From Promethearchaeota archaeon (lineage in GTDB: Archaea; Asgardarchaeota; Lokiarchaeia; Sigyniarchaeales; SOKP01), in NCBI GenBank assembly GCA_016839765.1, contig JAEOTP010000068.1, positions 1 to 64,000 on the forward strand: a stretch of 64,000 nt of DNA. The letters are read 5' to 3'. Positions 35,682 to 43,287 of the stretch are shown piece by piece. The translations under genes and the position numbers were made by a program. Every line of letters starts with the position of its first letter. Position 1 is the first letter of the stretch. The notes beneath the pieces are model-generated. The model saw only the letters and a program-made list of their open reading frames with translations. It did not search any database and had not been told where the DNA came from.

Positions 35682-36416
35682 CTAGGGTTGTTCTTTATCG
35701 ATTCCTAGTTGTGTAATCATCATTCTTTTAAGTTCTTCCTTATTTTTAGGCAGGCCAAACATATCAGCATATTTATCAGTCGTTGTTAATTCATGAGTTC
35801 TTCCTTTTTTCACAGCAGATATGAGGTCGTTATCTAAAAGATATTTAATATGCTCATAAGCACCACTTCCCCTTATTTTTACGACAGTTGATTTTAAAAT
35901 TGGTTGTTTTAATGCAATTACGGTTAAGGTTCTTAAATTAGCTTCTGAAATACCACCTCCTTTTGCAAATTTTGAAACGCGCTCTGTGTATTCTGGTCTT
36001 AATTGCATTTGAAACCTTTCGCCAACCTGGGCAATTATAAGTGCACTTGAGCGTTCTAAATAGTCAAAGGCTAGTTGGTTGACCAATTTCTCGACTTCTT
36101 TTTTTGGAAGCTCTAATTTAGTGGATAATTCTTCAATGTCTAATGGTCTTCCTGAAGCATAAAGTGCTCCTTCAATTAAATTTCTATTTAGTTCCGTTAA
36201 TTCAATTTGTATAGCAAATTCTGATTCTTGAGAGCTATTTTCTTGTTCTAATCCAGATCCAACTCCTATTCCGTTTAATTTTTCATTTGTTAAAGATATT
36301 GTTTGATCTTCTTCATCATTTTCATCATTTGTCTGCGATCCATCGTTAGATTTCTCTTCCTCATTATTTATTTGATTATTACCCACAAATTTATAATTAT
36401 CATCATTATCTTTCAT
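35682..36416 (-). CDS. scpB: Segregation and condensation protein B (kite)
   Basis: IEGALYASGRPL, LRTLTVIALKQPI...IRGSGAYEHIKYL and TTDKYADMFGL; acidic N-terminal extension. Confidence 0.93.
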   Translation of the reverse strand: MKDNDDNYKFVGNNQINNEEEKSNDGSQTNDENDEEDQTISLTNEKLNGIGVGSGLEQENSSQESEFAIQIELTELNRNLIEGALYASGRPLDIEELSTKLELPKKEVEKLVNQLAFDYLERSSALIIAQVGERFQMQLRPEYTERVSKFAKGGGISEANLRTLTVIALKQPILKSTVVKIRGSGAYEHIKYLLDNDLISAVKKGRTHELTTTDKYADMFGLPKNKEELKRMMITQLGIDKEQP

Positions 36417-36442: not shown

Positions 36443-37459
36443 TTATTTCTTTAGGGTAATCACAAAATCCTTAAAATCTTCATCTTGAGATAAAGTTAGC
36501 CTACTATTATTAGATAAAAACATTAATGCTAAGAACATTCTTACAAACGCAAACTTTTTATCTATATCATTTTCTTCTTCATTTTTAATTATTTCAGTTA
36601 TATCGAAAAAACTCGTTTCCTTATTATCAAATTCTGTTTTTGCCTTTATTCTATTATACCAAGAATCGTGTAATTCTTCTATACTTTGTTCTCTACCACT
36701 AATATGTTTTAATAACTCTTTTGGTAATCTGGCGTTTGATTTCATATGTATTCTTTGTTCCTTTAATTCATCTCTACGTAATCGTCGCCTTCTTAGCTTT
36801 TCTTTATTTTGCATTGTTTCTATAATTGCTGATCGCATTGCTTCAAACAATTCTTCCTTAGTAGATACTAGTAATTTTGGTTGAATGGGTTGAGGTAAGG
36901 TTTTAGGAATTGATCTCCCATGTCTTTGTCTGAATTTTTCAAGTTCTTCTTTTTTTTGAATTATTTCTTCTTCCTTTATAATACTCGATATTTTATAATG
37001 ATGTAAATAAGCAGAATTTTTTAGGGCAATTCCAGAAATTTTATAATTGATCAATTCTTCGTGAAGCATATTGCTAAAGAATTTATCAACTAGGGAAGCT
37101 AAATCATAAAAAGCTATATCTGAATCTTTTGCTAATTCAAAATCTAGTAAGCTAGAAAAAGGAGGTTTTTGCCAAAATTTTAACTCCAGTCTTTCTTTTT
37201 GTAATAGAGCAGGATCTTCTTCTTCGCCCGCTATTAATTCTTCTTCTAAAACCTCATCTAACTCATCTTCCTTGGTTCTATCTATAAATTCAGGATGGGA
37301 TACTACATCATTCAGTAATTTTATTATATCATTCTTTTTAGATTTAGAGGGGATAGTTATATTATTCTGTGTAGCAAAATCTCTTAACTCTTTTACAGTC
37401 CAATCTTTAAAATTATATCCCTCCTTTATGCCATTTTCTTTCGAAATTTCTAGCACCAC
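36443..37459 (-). CDS. scpA: Kleisin ScpA with an N-terminal SAP/HeH-like domain
   Basis: Lies between smc and scpB. Kleisin N-domain YDLASLVDKF..ISGIALKNSAYLHHYK; C-terminal wH FVRMFLALMFLSNNSRLTLSQDEDFKDF. Confidence 0.85.
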   Translation of the reverse strand: MVLEISKENGIKEGYNFKDWTVKELRDFATQNNITIPSKSKKNDIIKLLNDVVSHPEFIDRTKEDELDEVLEEELIAGEEEDPALLQKERLELKFWQKPPFSSLLDFELAKDSDIAFYDLASLVDKFFSNMLHEELINYKISGIALKNSAYLHHYKISSIIKEEEIIQKKEELEKFRQRHGRSIPKTLPQPIQPKLLVSTKEELFEAMRSAIIETMQNKEKLRRRRLRRDELKEQRIHMKSNARLPKELLKHISGREQSIEELHDSWYNRIKAKTEFDNKETSFFDITEIIKNEEENDIDKKFAFVRMFLALMFLSNNSRLTLSQDEDFKDFVITLKK

Positions 37460-37474
37460 ATTTTTTTGATAAAT

Positions 37475-40400
37475 TTAATTTTCTTCTACATTTGTAGGAA
37501 CCTCTGATAAATCTAAAAGTCGCTTTGCTTCTTCTTCTAAATCAACACTAAATACATCCGTGATACCCGATTGTTGCATTGATACCCCATATATCCTGTC
37601 CGCATTTACAATATTCTCTTCTCTATGGCTTATAACCAAAAATTGGGCTTGCGTGGAAATCTCTTTTAGCAACATTGAAACTCTATGTGTGTTAGGACCA
37701 TCCAACTGAGCATCAATCTCGTCGAGAATATAAAACGGACTTGGCATAAATTCCTGAATCGCGAAGATAAACGAGAGGGCCACGAGTGTTTTTTCTCCAC
37801 CGCTTAGAATTTCTAAGCTTGATATTTTCTTACCTCTAGGTCTTGCTTCAATGCTAATACCTCCTTCAAATGGTTTATCGGGTCTATCTAATATCATTTT
37901 AGCTGAACCTCCGGGACTTAATTTCTGAAAAATTCTACTAAATTCTCTGTTAATTTCATGATACGCTTTCATAAAAGTCCTAGTTTTTTCTAATTCAATT
38001 TTTTCAATGGCATCTAAGATTGCTTTTCTTTCTCTTTGAATTGTCTGTCTACGCATATCTATCTCATCGAATCTTTCTTTAACTGTATCATATTGTTCAA
38101 TTGCTTTTAAGTTAACTGGTTCAAGAGCCTTCTTCTTACTATTAGCTTCATTAATATCTGTTTGTAGACCGGTTTCCGATAAATCAGCGGTTACTTGTGG
38201 CAAGGAACCATAATCCTTTGATCTATGGTACAGTGTTTCAATTTGATCTGTTGTCATGATTTTTTGGGATTCATAATTATTTAATTTGGAATTTTCCATT
38301 GAAAGATCAGATTTTAAGTTATTTACAATTTTTTGATACGATTTTTGCTTTTTCCAAGATTCGTCCTTTTGATTAATGTAATCATCAATTTCTTCTTGCT
38401 TTAAACGTTTCTTTTCATTTTCACTAGTTAAATTATCTTTTACTTTTTCAATATCTTCTACTAAAGATTTGATTTCTTTTTCAGTGTTTTTTATCTCTTC
38501 GTTAAGTGAAAATATTTTTTGTTCGCGCTCTTTATTTTTATTTAATTCATTTAGTTTTTTCTGAGATTTTTGTAGATCCTTATTAAATTTATTCAATTTA
38601 CTCTGAGTCTTTTTTTGGGCTTCAAGCTCCTTGTTTTTCTCTTCGCGAATATGATCAATTTCTTTTTGAACTTCATCTACTTTTTTTTGAATATTATCTA
38701 CTTGGGAATTGAATTCTTCAATATCTTTTTTACATACATCAATATTTTTATTGGCTTCGATATTTTCTTTTGTTAATTCTTCGATGGAATTTATCATCAT
38801 CATAATATTTTCTAGAGCTCTCAGTTGATCCATTTTTTCCTCTAATTTCTTGTTATAATCTTCAGTTTCCTTTCTTATTTTCTCAATATTTACCCAATAA
38901 TTCTCTTTTTCAGTTATTAATTTTTCAATATTTTTATCCAAATTAGATTGCTCCAAGTTTAAATTTTTAATATTTTCTTGATTTGTATTTATTATTTCTT
39001 TCTTTTCCTCTATGGATTTGTTCAATTCTTTAACACTATTTTCAATTTCTAAAACATTCTCAAATAAATTTTGAATACCTCGAAGATCTTGTAATTTTGA
39101 TTGTAATTCTTCTAATTCTTTCTGTTTTTCATCAATTTGTAATTTAATTGCTGAAGAATTATCCCAATATTCATTTTTAAGGTTTTTTAATTTTTCTATC
39201 TCAGCTTTGTAATCTTCTTTTTGCTTTTCATCAATCGAAGTAGTCCTTTTTCGAATTTCGTCATCAGATTGTAAATTTAGTTGATTTATTTCTGCTATTC
39301 TTTTATTAATTTCTTCAAGTCTTTGATTAAAAAGCACTAAATTATCTGAATCATTTTTCTTTTGTGTATAAAATTCAGTTAATTTCATATCAACTTTATT
39401 TAAATCTTCATTTTGTGAGCTGATATTTTCGGAAATTTCCTCCAATTGTCTATATAATTCTTGACTCTTAGACATTGTTAATTTTCTTAAGGAGAGATAT
39501 ACGTTTTCTAAGATTTCCATTAGATCTTGCACAAAACTATCAAAAGTAGATGTAGATTGTTGAATTTCAACATCTGCAGATTCTTTTACTCTACTAATTA
39601 ACTGATCTAATGTTAAATCAACATTTTCGGTGAATAAAGTTAAAGTTTGTAAAATTGAGCTGAGCATTTGGGACATCTCTGATTTTTCTTCTTCATCATC
39701 GGTGACCCCTTCAACAGTTTTCATTATATCTACAACATCCAATACAAATTTCTTGAAATCTTCCGCAGAAGTTTCAATAGCTTCTGCATTTGACTGTTGG
39801 ATGTTGCTTTTTATAGATTCGACGGATATATTAATATTTTGAGTCAACATATTTAAAATCTGGAGAATTCCTGTAATATCTTCAGTATTTCTTTCATATT
39901 CTTTTTCTGAGTTTTCAATTTTTGATAATAAATTTTCTTTTTCAGCTGCTAAGTCATCTAAACGTTTAGTGATATTTTGCTTTCGAGTTTCAAGATTTTT
40001 TCTCTCGCTTTCAATTTGAGAAAGATTTTTATTTAAACTACTAACTTTTAAATCTAAATCTCGTTTTTCACGCTCTAGGTTTGTTAATTCTCTTTTAGAT
40101 AGTTTTAATTTAGTGTTTATATTATCTATTTTTGCTCTATTATCAAATATTTCAGATTGGATTGAATCTTGCTTCAATATTAATAGTTCTAATTCTTGTT
40201 CATTTTTTCTGTACGTAGAATCTTCAATATTTGCTTTTTCCTTAAGATTGTCCAAATTTTTGATAAGAATTTCTCTATTATCCATTAATTCTTTTAAAAT
40301 TGATTCGGTTTCTTTTCCCTTGCTTAATTCTTTAATTTTATTTTCAATGGATAATTTTCTGCTGTTTAATTTTTGGATTCTATCATTATTCATTTTAATT

Positions 40401-41923
40401 TCAGTATTTATCGAGGATAAGCTAGACTGTAATTCTGCGGATTTTGAATTCAGCTGGTATTTTTGTTCTTGTAATTCCTTAATTTTCGTTTCTAATTCTT
40501 TTTGTTTTTGATTTTCTTTTGTGATATTTCCTTTTAATTCATTAATCTTTTTCCTTAAATCTGCTTCTTCTTTTCTTACTGCATTTATTGCCTCATCGAT
40601 ACTTTCTGCTTCTCCCTTTAATTTATTTAGATCAACTTCCAATTTCTGTTTCTTTTCTTCATTTTTTATGATATTTTCTTTAAAAATTTTAATTTGGGCT
40701 TTATTGGAAGAAATATTTTGCTTTAAGTTTGAAATATCAGTTTTATGAGATGATTTCACATCTTCACTTTCGCTTATTTTTAATTCGAGTTCTGTTTGAC
40801 TTTGTTGTTTTAGTTCAATATCTTTTTTTGCATCTTCAATTTGATTTTCTAATTCAAGGATTTGATTATTTTCATTTTCAATTAACGCGTCAAACGTCAG
40901 ACCCTCTTCAAGCTTCATTAGTAAATTTTCTAAACTTTTTATTTCTTGAGATAACTTCTCAATTGATTTATGAGCTAATTCCAATGTAGTTTGATTAGAG
41001 GATAACTGAGTTTTCAATTGGGTTATATTTTCATTTATTATCTCTCGATCTTTTTCTTTTTCTGTAATTGTCTTCTGTATATTATCCATTACTAAAGATT
41101 CTTGCTTTAAAACCTCTTCTTGTCTTGTTACTTTTTCTTGTAATTCCTCAATTAGTTTATTTGATTCTTCAACTTTTTTTTCCAAAACCTCTTCTTGATC
41201 TCTTAATTTTGAAATTCTTAACGCAATTAATTGTGCGTTATAAAATTTGATTTTTTCATCCAATTCTTTCCAAGCTAAAGCATCGCTTTTCTCTTTTTCT
41301 ACTTTTTTAAGTTGTGAAGATACTTCTTTAAAAATTGCTTCAAATTGCCCTAAATCTCTCTCTGCTTTTTCTAATTCTTTTAAAGTAGAATCCTTCATCT
41401 CATCGTATTTCTGTAATCCAATTAGTTCCTCAATAAAAATTCTACGTCCTTCGGTATTCATGTGAGTCAATTCTACTATTTTACCTTGTAATACAAACTG
41501 ATTAGATCCGTCTGGATCTACATTTGCAGTCGCCAGAGCATTAAGAATTTGTTGTCGTGTAACTTTTTTCCCGTTCATTTTGTATCCTCCTCCACCACCC
41601 CGTTTTATAGTTCGAGTTATTTGAAATTCATCCCCTCCTCCAGGAAATATCTTCTCTGAATTATCAAAAAACATAGTTACTGCTGCTCTTTGTGATGGGT
41701 TTTTGCCTCTAGAACCTGCAAAAATAAGGTCCTCAAGACTTTTTGCTCTCATTGTTTTTTTACTTAATCTTCCTAAAGCAAAACATAAAGCATCAATAAT
41801 ATTTGATTTTCCTGCACCGTTAGGTCCTACTATACAAGTAAATCCACTTGAAAGTCGAATAGTCACTGTTCTATCTCCAAATGACTTAAATCCAGTCATG
41901 GAAATTTTTTTGATATAAGTCAA
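37475..41923 (-). CDS. smc: Chromosome segregation protein Smc, elongated, non-canonical apex
   Basis: GFKSFG, Walker A GPNGAGKSNI, Q-loop VLQG, PVNLKAIEQY, signature LSGGEK, Walker B LDEIDAQLD and ISH. TTG start after GGAG. Confidence 0.95.
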   Translation of the reverse strand: MTYIKKISMTGFKSFGDRTVTIRLSSGFTCIVGPNGAGKSNIIDALCFALGRLSKKTMRAKSLEDLIFAGSRGKNPSQRAAVTMFFDNSEKIFPGGGDEFQITRTIKRGGGGGYKMNGKKVTRQQILNALATANVDPDGSNQFVLQGKIVELTHMNTEGRRIFIEELIGLQKYDEMKDSTLKELEKAERDLGQFEAIFKEVSSQLKKVEKEKSDALAWKELDEKIKFYNAQLIALRISKLRDQEEVLEKKVEESNKLIEELQEKVTRQEEVLKQESLVMDNIQKTITEKEKDREIINENITQLKTQLSSNQTTLELAHKSIEKLSQEIKSLENLLMKLEEGLTFDALIENENNQILELENQIEDAKKDIELKQQSQTELELKISESEDVKSSHKTDISNLKQNISSNKAQIKIFKENIIKNEEKKQKLEVDLNKLKGEAESIDEAINAVRKEEADLRKKINELKGNITKENQKQKELETKIKELQEQKYQLNSKSAELQSSLSSINTEIKMNNDRIQKLNSRKLSIENKIKELSKGKETESILKELMDNREILIKNLDNLKEKANIEDSTYRKNEQELELLILKQDSIQSEIFDNRAKIDNINTKLKLSKRELTNLEREKRDLDLKVSSLNKNLSQIESERKNLETRKQNITKRLDDLAAEKENLLSKIENSEKEYERNTEDITGILQILNMLTQNINISVESIKSNIQQSNAEAIETSAEDFKKFVLDVVDIMKTVEGVTDDEEEKSEMSQMLSSILQTLTLFTENVDLTLDQLISRVKESADVEIQQSTSTFDSFVQDLMEILENVYLSLRKLTMSKSQELYRQLEEISENISSQNEDLNKVDMKLTEFYTQKKNDSDNLVLFNQRLEEINKRIAEINQLNLQSDDEIRKRTTSIDEKQKEDYKAEIEKLKNLKNEYWDNSSAIKLQIDEKQKELEELQSKLQDLRGIQNLFENVLEIENSVKELNKSIEEKKEIINTNQENIKNLNLEQSNLDKNIEKLITEKENYWVNIEKIRKETEDYNKKLEEKMDQLRALENIMMMINSIEELTKENIEANKNIDVCKKDIEEFNSQVDNIQKKVDEVQKEIDHIREEKNKELEAQKKTQSKLNKFNKDLQKSQKKLNELNKNKEREQKIFSLNEEIKNTEKEIKSLVEDIEKVKDNLTSENEKKRLKQEEIDDYINQKDESWKKQKSYQKIVNNLKSDLSMENSKLNNYESQKIMTTDQIETLYHRSKDYGSLPQVTADLSETGLQTDINEANSKKKALEPVNLKAIEQYDTVKERFDEIDMRRQTIQRERKAILDAIEKIELEKTRTFMKAYHEINREFSRIFQKLSPGGSAKMILDRPDKPFEGGISIEARPRGKKISSLEILSGGEKTLVALSFIFAIQEFMPSPFYILDEIDAQLDGPNTHRVSMLLKEISTQAQFLVISHREENIVNADRIYGVSMQQSGITDVFSVDLEEEAKRLLDLSEVPTNVEEN

Positions 41924-42093: not shown

Positions 42094-43287
42094 TTAAAAT
42101 TTATTAAATATTGCATCTGCAATAGCTTTAAGTTGTTTTGGATTTATTGCCATAAAATAGAATTTATAATTTAATAAATTTTTTTGATCAGATTTTAATA
42201 AGGTTTGATCACTTCTTTTTGAGAAACTCAAAACTCCGATACTATGTAATGCTTTAATTAATTCATAAAATTCATCCATTCTTTTATTATATTCTAATGA
42301 TTCACAAGATATATAATATAATTCCTTTAGTTCATCTATTGTTATATAATAATTAGGTCTTTTTAAAAAGAAATTCGCTAAGTTATCAAGAAAGATTAGA
42401 GTTAATATATCTTCTTCAGAAATATAAGTTAACATGGCAAACTCATCTGATAGGTGAATTGAATCAAATTGATTTTGAAGTATTTCAATAATCTCCAGAT
42501 TATTTATAACATTTTGATGAGCTAATATTGGATATAGTTCTCTTAATATCTCAACCCCTTTTCCCGGTACAGGAACATAATGTTCAAAAATCAAATCGCT
42601 TATAAATTCAATTAATTCTTTATCAATTCCATTGATGAAGGTTAAAGCAACTCGTTGTTCAATAATATCAAGAAGTTCATGGTAATTGTAATAGCTTAAT
42701 TTTTTTTTAAGATCAAATTTATTGATTAAATCTAGAGTTTCAGGTTTCAATACTTTATTTACAGTTGAAATTGAACTAATTTTTGATTCTTTTCCATATT
42801 GTAAGAATTTCTTATAATATTCTGGTTTTAAATGCTCAATATTGTTGAAAACAAGGATCAAATTATTTCTAGTTTTGTTACAGATTAGTTTGAAAATATT
42901 CCATAATTCAGATAAATTACAATTGAGGAATTGAAGATAATCAACTTTGATATTAGTAAAACTACTAATATCAGTTATAATGGAGAAAACAATTTCATTA
43001 ATGCTTTTTTCTTTACAATCTATTGGAATTTTTATGAAACCTATAAAATCTTCTTCCGTTTTAATTAGATCTTGTATAACTTTATTAATAATTACTTTTT
43101 TACCAATTCCTTGGATACCTTGATATAATACGTTTAAATTAAACTCATCTGAAACTGAATCTTTCAGAATTGAATACAAGTTGACTTCTTCTTTCTTCCT
43201 ATGTAAAATCTCAGGGGGAACATAATTAGGATCAAAAATAGCTTTTGGTCCAATACAAAAATTCATAGATTTTGATTTTCCAATCAT
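42094..43287 (-). CDS. Orc1/Cdc6-family AAA+ paralog with degenerate ATPase motifs
   Basis: FDPNYVPPEILHR is a Cdc6 N-terminal signature; GIQGIGKK, LILVFNNIE, YNYHELLDIIEQRV and a C-terminal wH. Confidence 0.85.
   Translation of the reverse strand: MIGKSKSMNFCIGPKAIFDPNYVPPEILHRKKEEVNLYSILKDSVSDEFNLNVLYQGIQGIGKKVIINKVIQDLIKTEEDFIGFIKIPIDCKEKSINEIVFSIITDISSFTNIKVDYLQFLNCNLSELWNIFKLICNKTRNNLILVFNNIEHLKPEYYKKFLQYGKESKISSISTVNKVLKPETLDLINKFDLKKKLSYYNYHELLDIIEQRVALTFINGIDKELIEFISDLIFEHYVPVPGKGVEILRELYPILAHQNVINNLEIIEILQNQFDSIHLSDEFAMLTYISEEDILTLIFLDNLANFFLKRPNYYITIDELKELYYISCESLEYNKRMDEFYELIKALHSIGVLSFSKRSDQTLLKSDQKNLLNYKFYFMAINPKQLKAIADAIFNKF

What the first reader, a model, noticed from the sequence alone, without database searches (positions are those of the whole stretch)
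39440..39890. Smc with intact heads but no recognisable hinge: apex replaced by a helical segment
Seen: the 1482-aa Smc has all canonical head motifs, and ScpA and ScpB follow in the same orientation. At its midpoint (aa ~680-830) I find none of the alpha/beta hinge hallmarks (no G-x6-G-x3-GG, no RxTFLPL) and no Rad50-type CxxC hook. Instead there is a quasi-symmetric amphipathic helical stretch around an acidic turn: EDITGILQILNMLTQNINISVESIK..SAEDFKKFVLDVVDIMKTV-EGVTDDEEEK-SEMSQMLSSILQTLTLFTENVDLTLDQL..STSTFDSFVQDLMEILENV. Known: Smc-ScpAB condensins dimerise through the hinge. Inference: this is a condensin-type complex with a different (helical-bundle) dimerisation apex or a monomeric arm. 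I cannot exclude that this has already been noted for Lokiarchaeia.
Basis: partly seen in the sequence, partly recalled or inferred. Interest (0 to 1): 0.85.

Follow-up and report, generated by a model that had tools for sequence, protein, structure and literature searches.

The report
Hinge-less long-armed Smc of Lokiarchaeia
This Asgard (Loki-type) archaeon's only condensin-type chromosome-folding protein has normal ATP-burning heads and partner genes, but the usual 'hinge' that joins two copies is replaced by a conserved all-helical hairpin on extra-long arms, which makes it a natural test of whether such DNA motors need a hinge.

Summary
Confirmed. The 1482-aa Smc (37475-41923, minus strand; scpA and scpB follow) has intact head motifs but no hinge and no CxxC hook. 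AlphaFold models aa 620-868 as one strand-free helical hairpin (turn aa 742-748). The tip is a duplicated ~56-residue helix pair whose hydrophobic period shifts from 3.5 (arms) to 3.65. It was found in 131 of 154 genomes of the order, including both cultured Lokiarchaeia, and essentially nowhere else. The arms are lengthened by matched ~97/90-residue repeats; Sigynarchaeum lacks exactly one repeat per strand. This is a paralogue: deeper lineages keep a hinged Smc too, which this genome and most of its family lack. Not seen in the earlier notes returned: the same tip module occurs twice in a non-ATPase protein of Promethearchaeum relatives, where the model packs both copies into one four-helix bundle. 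That supports tip-to-tip dimerisation, which is inferred, not shown. No paper found describes the hinge loss. Precedents are hinge-less SMCs in marine Actinobacteria and a working hinge-to-zinc-hook swap in Bacillus. This scan found the same family before on other DNA (at least 8 notes).

The parts
37475..41923 (-). Smc, 1482 aa, condensin-type heads, no hinge
   Evidence: TIGR02168 587 bits, over cut-off 567; TIGR02169 601 bits, under cut-off 729 and in pieces
41414..41923 (-). N-terminal head half (aa 1-170): Walker A at 41804-41827, Q-loop at 41480-41494
   Evidence: 73% mean identity across 24 orthologues
40028..41218 (-). N-strand of the arm with ~97/98-residue repeats (about aa 236-632, boundaries approximate)
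   Evidence: profile autocorrelation peaks at lag 195, z 4.5; Sigynarchaeum orthologues lack one 97-aa block
39701..39898 (-). Apex helix A (aa 676-741), first copy of the duplicated unit; hydrophobic period 3.65
39680..39700 (-). Acidic, variable turn of the hairpin (aa 742-748)
   Evidence: AF2 turn; 21% mean identity
39434..39679 (-). Apex helix B (aa 749-830), second copy of the duplicated unit; hydrophobic period 3.66
38219..39301 (-). C-strand of the arm with 90-residue repeats (about aa 875-1235, boundaries approximate; Trp at 920, 1010, 1190)
   Evidence: lag 90 z 5.3, lag 180 z 3.4; Sigynarchaeum orthologues lack one 88-aa block
37528..37963 (-). C-terminal head half (about aa 1321-1465): signature at 37787-37807, Walker B/D-loop at 37703-37732, H-loop at 37622-37630
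   Evidence: 84% mean identity
36443..37459 (-). ScpA kleisin, 338 aa, with a weak N-terminal HeH/SAP-like segment (aa ~17-51)
   Evidence: aligns with Asgard ScpAs over the N-helical and C-terminal winged-helix parts; only ScpA in the genome; HeH E 4e-4, below cut-off
35682..36416 (-). ScpB kite protein, 244 aa
   Evidence: PF04079 E 3e-37, TIGR00281 over cut-off; only ScpB in the genome

Best explanation
A condensin-type Smc-ScpA(-ScpB) chromosome-organising complex whose Smc dimerises through a helical tip instead of a hinge. Shown: the heads are intact and strongly conserved; each chain is predicted to fold back on itself at aa 742-748; the last ~65 residues before and after the turn form a conserved, acidic hairpin with a broader hydrophobic face; the arms grew by whole ~97/90-residue units. 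Inferred: two such hairpins pack side by side, tips together, into a four-helix bundle that closes the Smc-kleisin ring as a hinge would. ATP-driven head engagement then works as in other Smc-ScpAB, through arms of up to ~85 nm contour whose length changes in steps of about one superhelical period to keep tip and heads in phase. The acidic tip probably does not bind DNA as the basic hinge does. In this family it is the only condensin-type complex and probably does chromosome compaction and segregation.
For: No hinge by HMM or model. Hydrophobic period 3.65/3.66 and 39% hydrophobic residues in the apex vs 3.5 and 25% in the flanking arms: more hydrophobic face than a two-helix coil buries. Apex 47% conserved vs 29-33% in the flanks. 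The homologous module (hhalign probability 99.5, E 1e-22) occurs twice in a non-ATPase protein family. Its AF2 model (pLDDT 88.5, pTM 0.59) superposes on whole single-chain four-helix bundles using residues of both copies: 4uos, 187 of 188 residues, rmsd 3.2, Z 13.7, model range 75-431; ABLE, 126 of 126, rmsd 2.7. Sigynarchaeum orthologues lack one 97-aa and one 88-aa block, close to the 91-aa functional period of Smc arms (PMC5344682). In B. subtilis the hinge can be replaced by a zinc hook with normal growth (same paper). The smc-scpA-scpB order is kept in most loci across the order. This genome has one ScpA, one ScpB and no hinged condensin-type Smc.
Against: The bundle was modelled only for the homologous tandem protein, from 17 sequences; AF2 tends to pack helices that lie in one chain, and Z near 13 is common for helical bundles (note). 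I could not read the coordinates, so the tips-together geometry is deduced from aligned ranges. A 3.65 period also fits lipid-binding amphipathic helices (weak, sub-threshold apolipoprotein hits in 11 of 24 members). Six tested archaeal ScpA-ScpB pairs do not bind each other (PMC7055376). No expression or function data. Deeper lineages keep a hinged Smc, so there the hinge-less one may have another job.
Confidence: 0.62

Rival explanations
1. The apex is a tether, not a homodimer interface: the amphipathic hairpin anchors the Smc tip to a membrane or to another protein, and dimers form only through heads and kleisin.
For: Period 3.65 with a wide hydrophobic face. Weak apolipoprotein, ApoLp-III and phasin-type hits. 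The module is reused in a tandem-module protein and in an 878-aa protein with a small-GTPase-like N-terminus, so it could be a general docking module.
Against: All lipid-protein hits are far below cut-off and compositional. The apex is strongly acidic (25 D/E vs 9 K/R). This genome encodes no second protein with the module. Matched arm repeats argue for a phase constraint between tip and heads.
Confidence: 0.15
2. Monomeric arms: the hairpin is only a stable cap, the ring is open at the tip, and the complex is held by ATP-engaged heads and ScpA, as in some short hinge-less SMC-like proteins.
For: The single-chain AF2 model is a plain two-helix hairpin. Hinge-less SMC variants without a zinc hook are reported in marine Actinobacteria (PMC12153180).
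Against: A cap needs no 130-residue conserved module with a shifted helical period, and free arms would not need length changes in whole, matched units.
Confidence: 0.1
3. The apices pair antiparallel (tip to tip, RecN-like) or as higher oligomers, giving a long bridge or filament that links distant DNA rather than a closed ring.
For: RecN dimerises through helical arm tips (own knowledge, not tested here). Very long arms would suit bridging. Two hairpins can form a four-helix bundle in either direction.
Against: In the tandem-module model the two turns appear to lie at the same end: cytochrome b562-type bundles align to residues 104-400, around both turns. The conserved kleisin favours a tripartite ring.
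Confidence: 0.12
4. Assembly error, or a decaying gene that lost its hinge.
For: Single metagenome-assembled genome; a hinged paralogue exists in relatives.
Against: 170 homologues of the region, and none of the 120 listed carries a hinge. Intact ~1480-1510 aa frames in over 100 genomes, including complete ones. Heads 73-84% identical with short branches.
Confidence: 0.01

Closest known systems
Prokaryotic Smc-ScpAB (B. subtilis, Pyrococcus; TIGR02168/TIGR02169)
   Same: Head motifs, neck and joint region, kleisin and kite neighbours; a profile of the hinged paralogue aligns collinearly to aa 2-501 and 1047-1469.
   Different: The ~250 residues holding the hinge are replaced by ~545 residues of repeats and a helical hairpin; arms about 1.6-1.7 times longer; acidic tip.
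Archaeal condensin/cohesin-related SMC of van Hooff et al. (bioRxiv 10.1101/2024.01.07.573240)
   Same: Their example operon in P. syntrophicum (SMC, kleisin, kite adjacent; genes 810-808) is by inference this family: the hinge-less Smc there is DSAG12_00820, and the hinged one has no adjacent kleisin.
   Different: They do not remark on hinge loss: the word is absent from the supplements and appears only in general descriptions in the text.
Hinge-less SMC variants of marine Actinobacteria (PMC12153180)
   Same: SMC-type heads, neither hinge nor CxxC hook.
   Different: Bacterial and unrelated: the apex profile finds no such protein among 1.8 billion representatives. They were reported not to coexist with regular SMC; no defined apex module or arm repeats were described in the passages read.
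Rad50/SbcC and ASRP/ClsN (zinc-hook SMC-like proteins; PMC9389158)
   Same: No hinge; arm-tip dimerisation by another fold.
   Different: No CxxC here; heads score far better as Smc (E 1e-176 vs 1e-23 for Rad50 and 1e-39 for ASRP); the genome has a separate Rad50-like gene beside mre11 and herA.
RecN (own knowledge) and the chemoreceptor cytoplasmic hairpin dimer (2ch7, 3g67)
   Same: All-helical tip; chemoreceptors pack two long hairpins into a four-helix bundle and are the top fold matches.
   Different: Shape only (Foldseek E above 1e-3, 14% identity or less); no homology shown; RecN has short arms and no kleisin.

Membership tests
Canonical Smc (Smc-ScpAB) | ABC-type head with Walker A, Q-loop, signature, Walker B, D-loop, H-loop | tested here: met
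   TIGR02168 over cut-off
Canonical Smc (Smc-ScpAB) | Central alpha/beta hinge domain (PF06470) | tested here: not met
   no hit at E<=1; all-helical model; the same HMM works on controls and paralogues
Canonical Smc (Smc-ScpAB) | Antiparallel coiled-coil arm of about 330 residues per strand | tested here: not met
   coiled coil present (period 3.5) but about 575 residues from head edge to turn, built of repeats
Canonical Smc (Smc-ScpAB) | Kleisin ScpA and kite ScpB genes | tested here: met
   adjacent genes, order conserved across the taxon
Canonical Smc (Smc-ScpAB) | Homodimer joined at the arm tip; ring closed by kleisin; ATP-dependent DNA loading | not testable with these tools
   needs biochemistry; only indirect support
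Archaeal canonical (condensin/cohesin-related) SMC clade | Head phylogeny with canonical Asgard Smc rather than SMC5/6-like | tested here: met
   groups with hinged Asgard Smc, apart from the divergent second SMC (100/100); own clade SH-aLRT 100; only Asgard sequences were in the trees
Rad50/SbcC and ASRP/ClsN | CxxC zinc hook at the apex | tested here: not met
   no CxxC in the protein; no hook HMM hit
Rad50/SbcC | Mre11/SbcD nuclease partner | tested here: not met
   neighbours are scpA/scpB; the mre11-rad50 locus is on another contig
Chemoreceptor-like or RecN-like helical dimer tip | Homology to a known helical dimerisation domain | tested here: inconclusive
   only generic hairpin matches; RecN was not compared directly
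MukB / MksB / JetC | MukB-type heads with MukE/MukF-type partners | not tested
   no dedicated search; best family hits are Smc and ScpB

The most novel reading that the evidence does not exclude
A natural, full-length condensin-type SMC motor in the closest cultured relatives of eukaryotes that folds chromosomes with no hinge at all. It dimerises through a previously undescribed four-helix-bundle module that is also reused in non-SMC proteins, on the longest known type of prokaryotic Smc arm, and it has fully displaced the hinged complex in a large family.
Probability: 0.55. Interest if true: 0.85.

Novelty: new variant of a known kind. Interest (0 to 1): 0.74.

Why it matters
Models of SMC loop extrusion disagree on what the hinge does: DNA entry gate, DNA-binding foot that swings to the heads, or mere dimer joint. 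A conserved natural Smc-kleisin complex with an acidic helical tip, present as the only condensin-type complex in most of a family, would make this testable. Orthologues exist in two cultured archaea (P. syntrophicum QEE14997; Ca. L. ossiferum UYP46603). The Sigynarchaeum form, one repeat shorter per strand, offers a natural series for arm length versus step size. It also means the operon apparently cited as the Asgard condensin/cohesin-related complex is a derived form.

Tried and rejected
Complex prediction on two copies of aa 620-868 gave no verdict (score 0.00, controls not folded); it is not used as evidence either way. Sequence searches of the apex against PDB and Pfam gave only compositional helical hits. 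Foldseek, VIA-align and Atlas searches gave generic hairpins; a missing family there is not exclusion. Three weak profile hits (HEAT-repeat, tape-measure and one archaeal protein) were rejected as compositional. Two apex hits outside the order (G039, G063) are short contigs that match or nest among in-order sequences and are probably mis-binned. Whether the two paralogues are sisters is unresolved (p-AU 0.0496). Literature searches for a description of this hinge loss found none; the library lacks most subscription papers.

Full report
Observation. The window encodes a 1482-aa Smc at 37475-41923 (minus), followed by scpA (36443-37459) and scpB (35682-36416). All head motifs are intact and TIGR02168 passes its cut-off. 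Pfam finds no hinge and no zinc hook at E<=1, and the chain has no hinge glycine motif, no CxxC and no proline from aa 138 to 1241. The hinge HMM is sensitive enough: it finds hinges in most control genomes and a divergent hinge in another SMC of this genome. AlphaFold2 on aa 620-868 gives two long helices joined by a turn at aa 742-748, with no strand (pLDDT 84.7, pTM 0.46).

Anatomy of the apex. The two halves are a direct tandem duplication (aa 682-736 and 753-807; score 92, none of 2000 shuffles above 56). Across 24 orthologues the apex is 47% identical, against 29-33% in the flanking arm and 21% in the turn. The hydrophobic period changes from 3.5 in the arm to 3.65 in both apex helices, and hydrophobic content rises from 25% to 39%. 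By established coiled-coil rules this is an 11-residue pattern with a wider buried face, as in four-helix bundles; lipid-binding helices share it. The apex is acidic (25 D/E, 9 K/R), so hinge-like DNA binding is unlikely (inference).

Arms. The long orthologues examined show internal repeats, lag 195 (97+98) on the N strand and 90 on the C strand; the hinged proteins examined do not. Sigynarchaeum orthologues (1299 aa) keep the apex but lack one 97-residue and one 88-residue block. Functional B. subtilis Smc arm lengths recur with a 91-residue period, near the ~99-residue superhelical period (PMC5344682). I infer that tip and heads are still phase-coupled, which is expected if the tips are joined. 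Head edge to turn is about 575 residues, or up to ~85 nm if straight (inference at 0.148 nm per residue).

Distribution. Homologues are named Promethearchaeota/Lokiarchaeota and none of the 120 listed carries a hinge. The apex profile hits this genome, 113 of 134 others in its family, 14 of 14, 1 of 1 and 2 of 4 in the other families of the order, none of the other families of the class, and two probably mis-binned contigs elsewhere among 400 Asgard genomes. P. syntrophicum (QEE14997) and Ca. L. ossiferum (UYP46603) have it. These genomes also hold a hinged ~1200-aa Smc and a divergent ~1185-aa SMC, probably the SMC5/6-related one. A strong hinge in a long Smc-sized or contig-cut frame occurs in 13 of 19 genomes of the other three families but in only 11 of 135 in this family, and in none of this genus (42 genomes) or the largest sister genus (54). 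Kin are not independent and many genomes are incomplete, but this pattern points to loss. This genome (96% complete) has one ScpA, one ScpB, the hinge-less Smc, the divergent SMC (30% identical to the P. syntrophicum one) and a separate Rad50-like gene beside mre11. In head trees that exclude the apex, hinge-less and hinged paralogues each form a clade with Sigynarchaeum-type sequences branching first, so both were present in the ancestor of the order; whether they are sisters is unresolved. The full smc-scpA-scpB operon goes with the hinge-less copy. The hinged copy sits with a divergent scpB only, and a second divergent kleisin lies elsewhere.

The module outside Smc. A search of 1.8 billion representatives returned 41 proteins. 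They are Smc or Smc-like fragments, three compositional hits, and a family of ~920-1290-aa proteins without Pfam domains. That family, found in Promethearchaeum relatives, carries two copies of the apex module followed by a beta-rich region and often a lysine-rich tail; homology is firm (hhalign 99.5%) and all four apex-type helices show the 3.61-3.66 period. Its AF2 model (pLDDT 88.5, pTM 0.59) superposes on complete single-chain four-helix bundles with residues from both copies (4uos 187 of 188, rmsd 3.2, Z 13.7; b562-type matches span both turns). This is a natural covalent analogue of an apex dimer and the best support for side-by-side, tips-together packing. It remains a model of a homologue built from 17 sequences, read through aligned ranges only.

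Mechanism. Most likely (0.62) two Smc chains join by a four-helix bundle at the tips, ScpA bridges the heads, and the ATPase cycle drives DNA loading and translocation as in Smc-ScpAB. That a different dimer joint suffices is shown in B. subtilis, where a zinc hook replaces the hinge with normal growth. Rivals are a membrane or protein tether (0.15), antiparallel or oligomeric bridging (0.12) and monomeric arms (0.10). ScpB may not be a subunit, since six archaeal ScpA-ScpB pairs failed to bind (PMC7055376).

Comparison and novelty. It works like Smc-ScpAB and descends from it, but fails the hinge and arm-length criteria, so it is a variant and not a canonical member. It is not Rad50 or ASRP/ClsN (no hook). 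Hinge-less SMCs are published for marine Actinobacteria (PMC12153180). The P. syntrophicum operon appears to be the one cited as condensin/cohesin-related without comment on the hinge. I found no paper describing this family's hinge loss. Earlier notes of this scan report the same family in at least eight other cases; they are unchecked AI notes and were not used as support.

Verdict. Real, conserved across an order, a new variant of Smc-ScpAB, testable in cultured organisms and in B. subtilis. Interest 0.74; the dimer geometry is the open step.

Noticed in passing
L080:5997-9122 (-), L081:4688-8044 (+), L082:5981-8746 (-); P0131, P0134, P0142: Family of ~920-1290-aa non-ATPase proteins in Promethearchaeum relatives (e.g. 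DSAG12_01461) with two copies of the Smc apex module, a beta-rich region and often a lysine-rich tail; no Pfam hit; function unknown. Absent from this genome.
   Followed up: partly
L084:1033-3669 (-): 878-aa protein with a small-GTPase-like N-terminus by eye, followed by one and a half apex modules closely similar to the Smc apex; single 5-kb contig.
   Followed up: partly
L072:6021-6758 (-), L073:5716-6417 (-): Stand-alone SMC hinge-domain proteins of 233-245 aa in two genomes of one genus that have the hinge-less Smc and no full hinged Smc; remnant or repurposed domain.
   Followed up: partly
window 42094-43287 (-): Orc1/Cdc6 paralogue with degenerate Walker motifs directly upstream of smc; the adjacency is kept in many genomes of the family.
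   Followed up: partly
window 36443-37459 (-): ScpA has an N-terminal HeH/SAP-like segment (weak Pfam hits); orthologues in deeper lineages have lysine-rich tails there instead. Possible extra DNA anchor.
   Followed up: partly
L062-L066, L074-L079: The hinged Smc paralogue of this order lies next to a divergent scpB but no scpA; a divergent second kleisin is encoded elsewhere.
   Followed up: partly
L010:128-3580 (-): Second SMC of this genome (1151-aa frame) with a weak hinge hit, probably SMC5/6-related; it ends at the contig edge, so its partners were not seen.
   Followed up: partly
L011:4512-6623 (-): Short Rad50-like protein (703 aa) in a cluster with mre11 and herA; its hook was not examined.
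   Followed up: no
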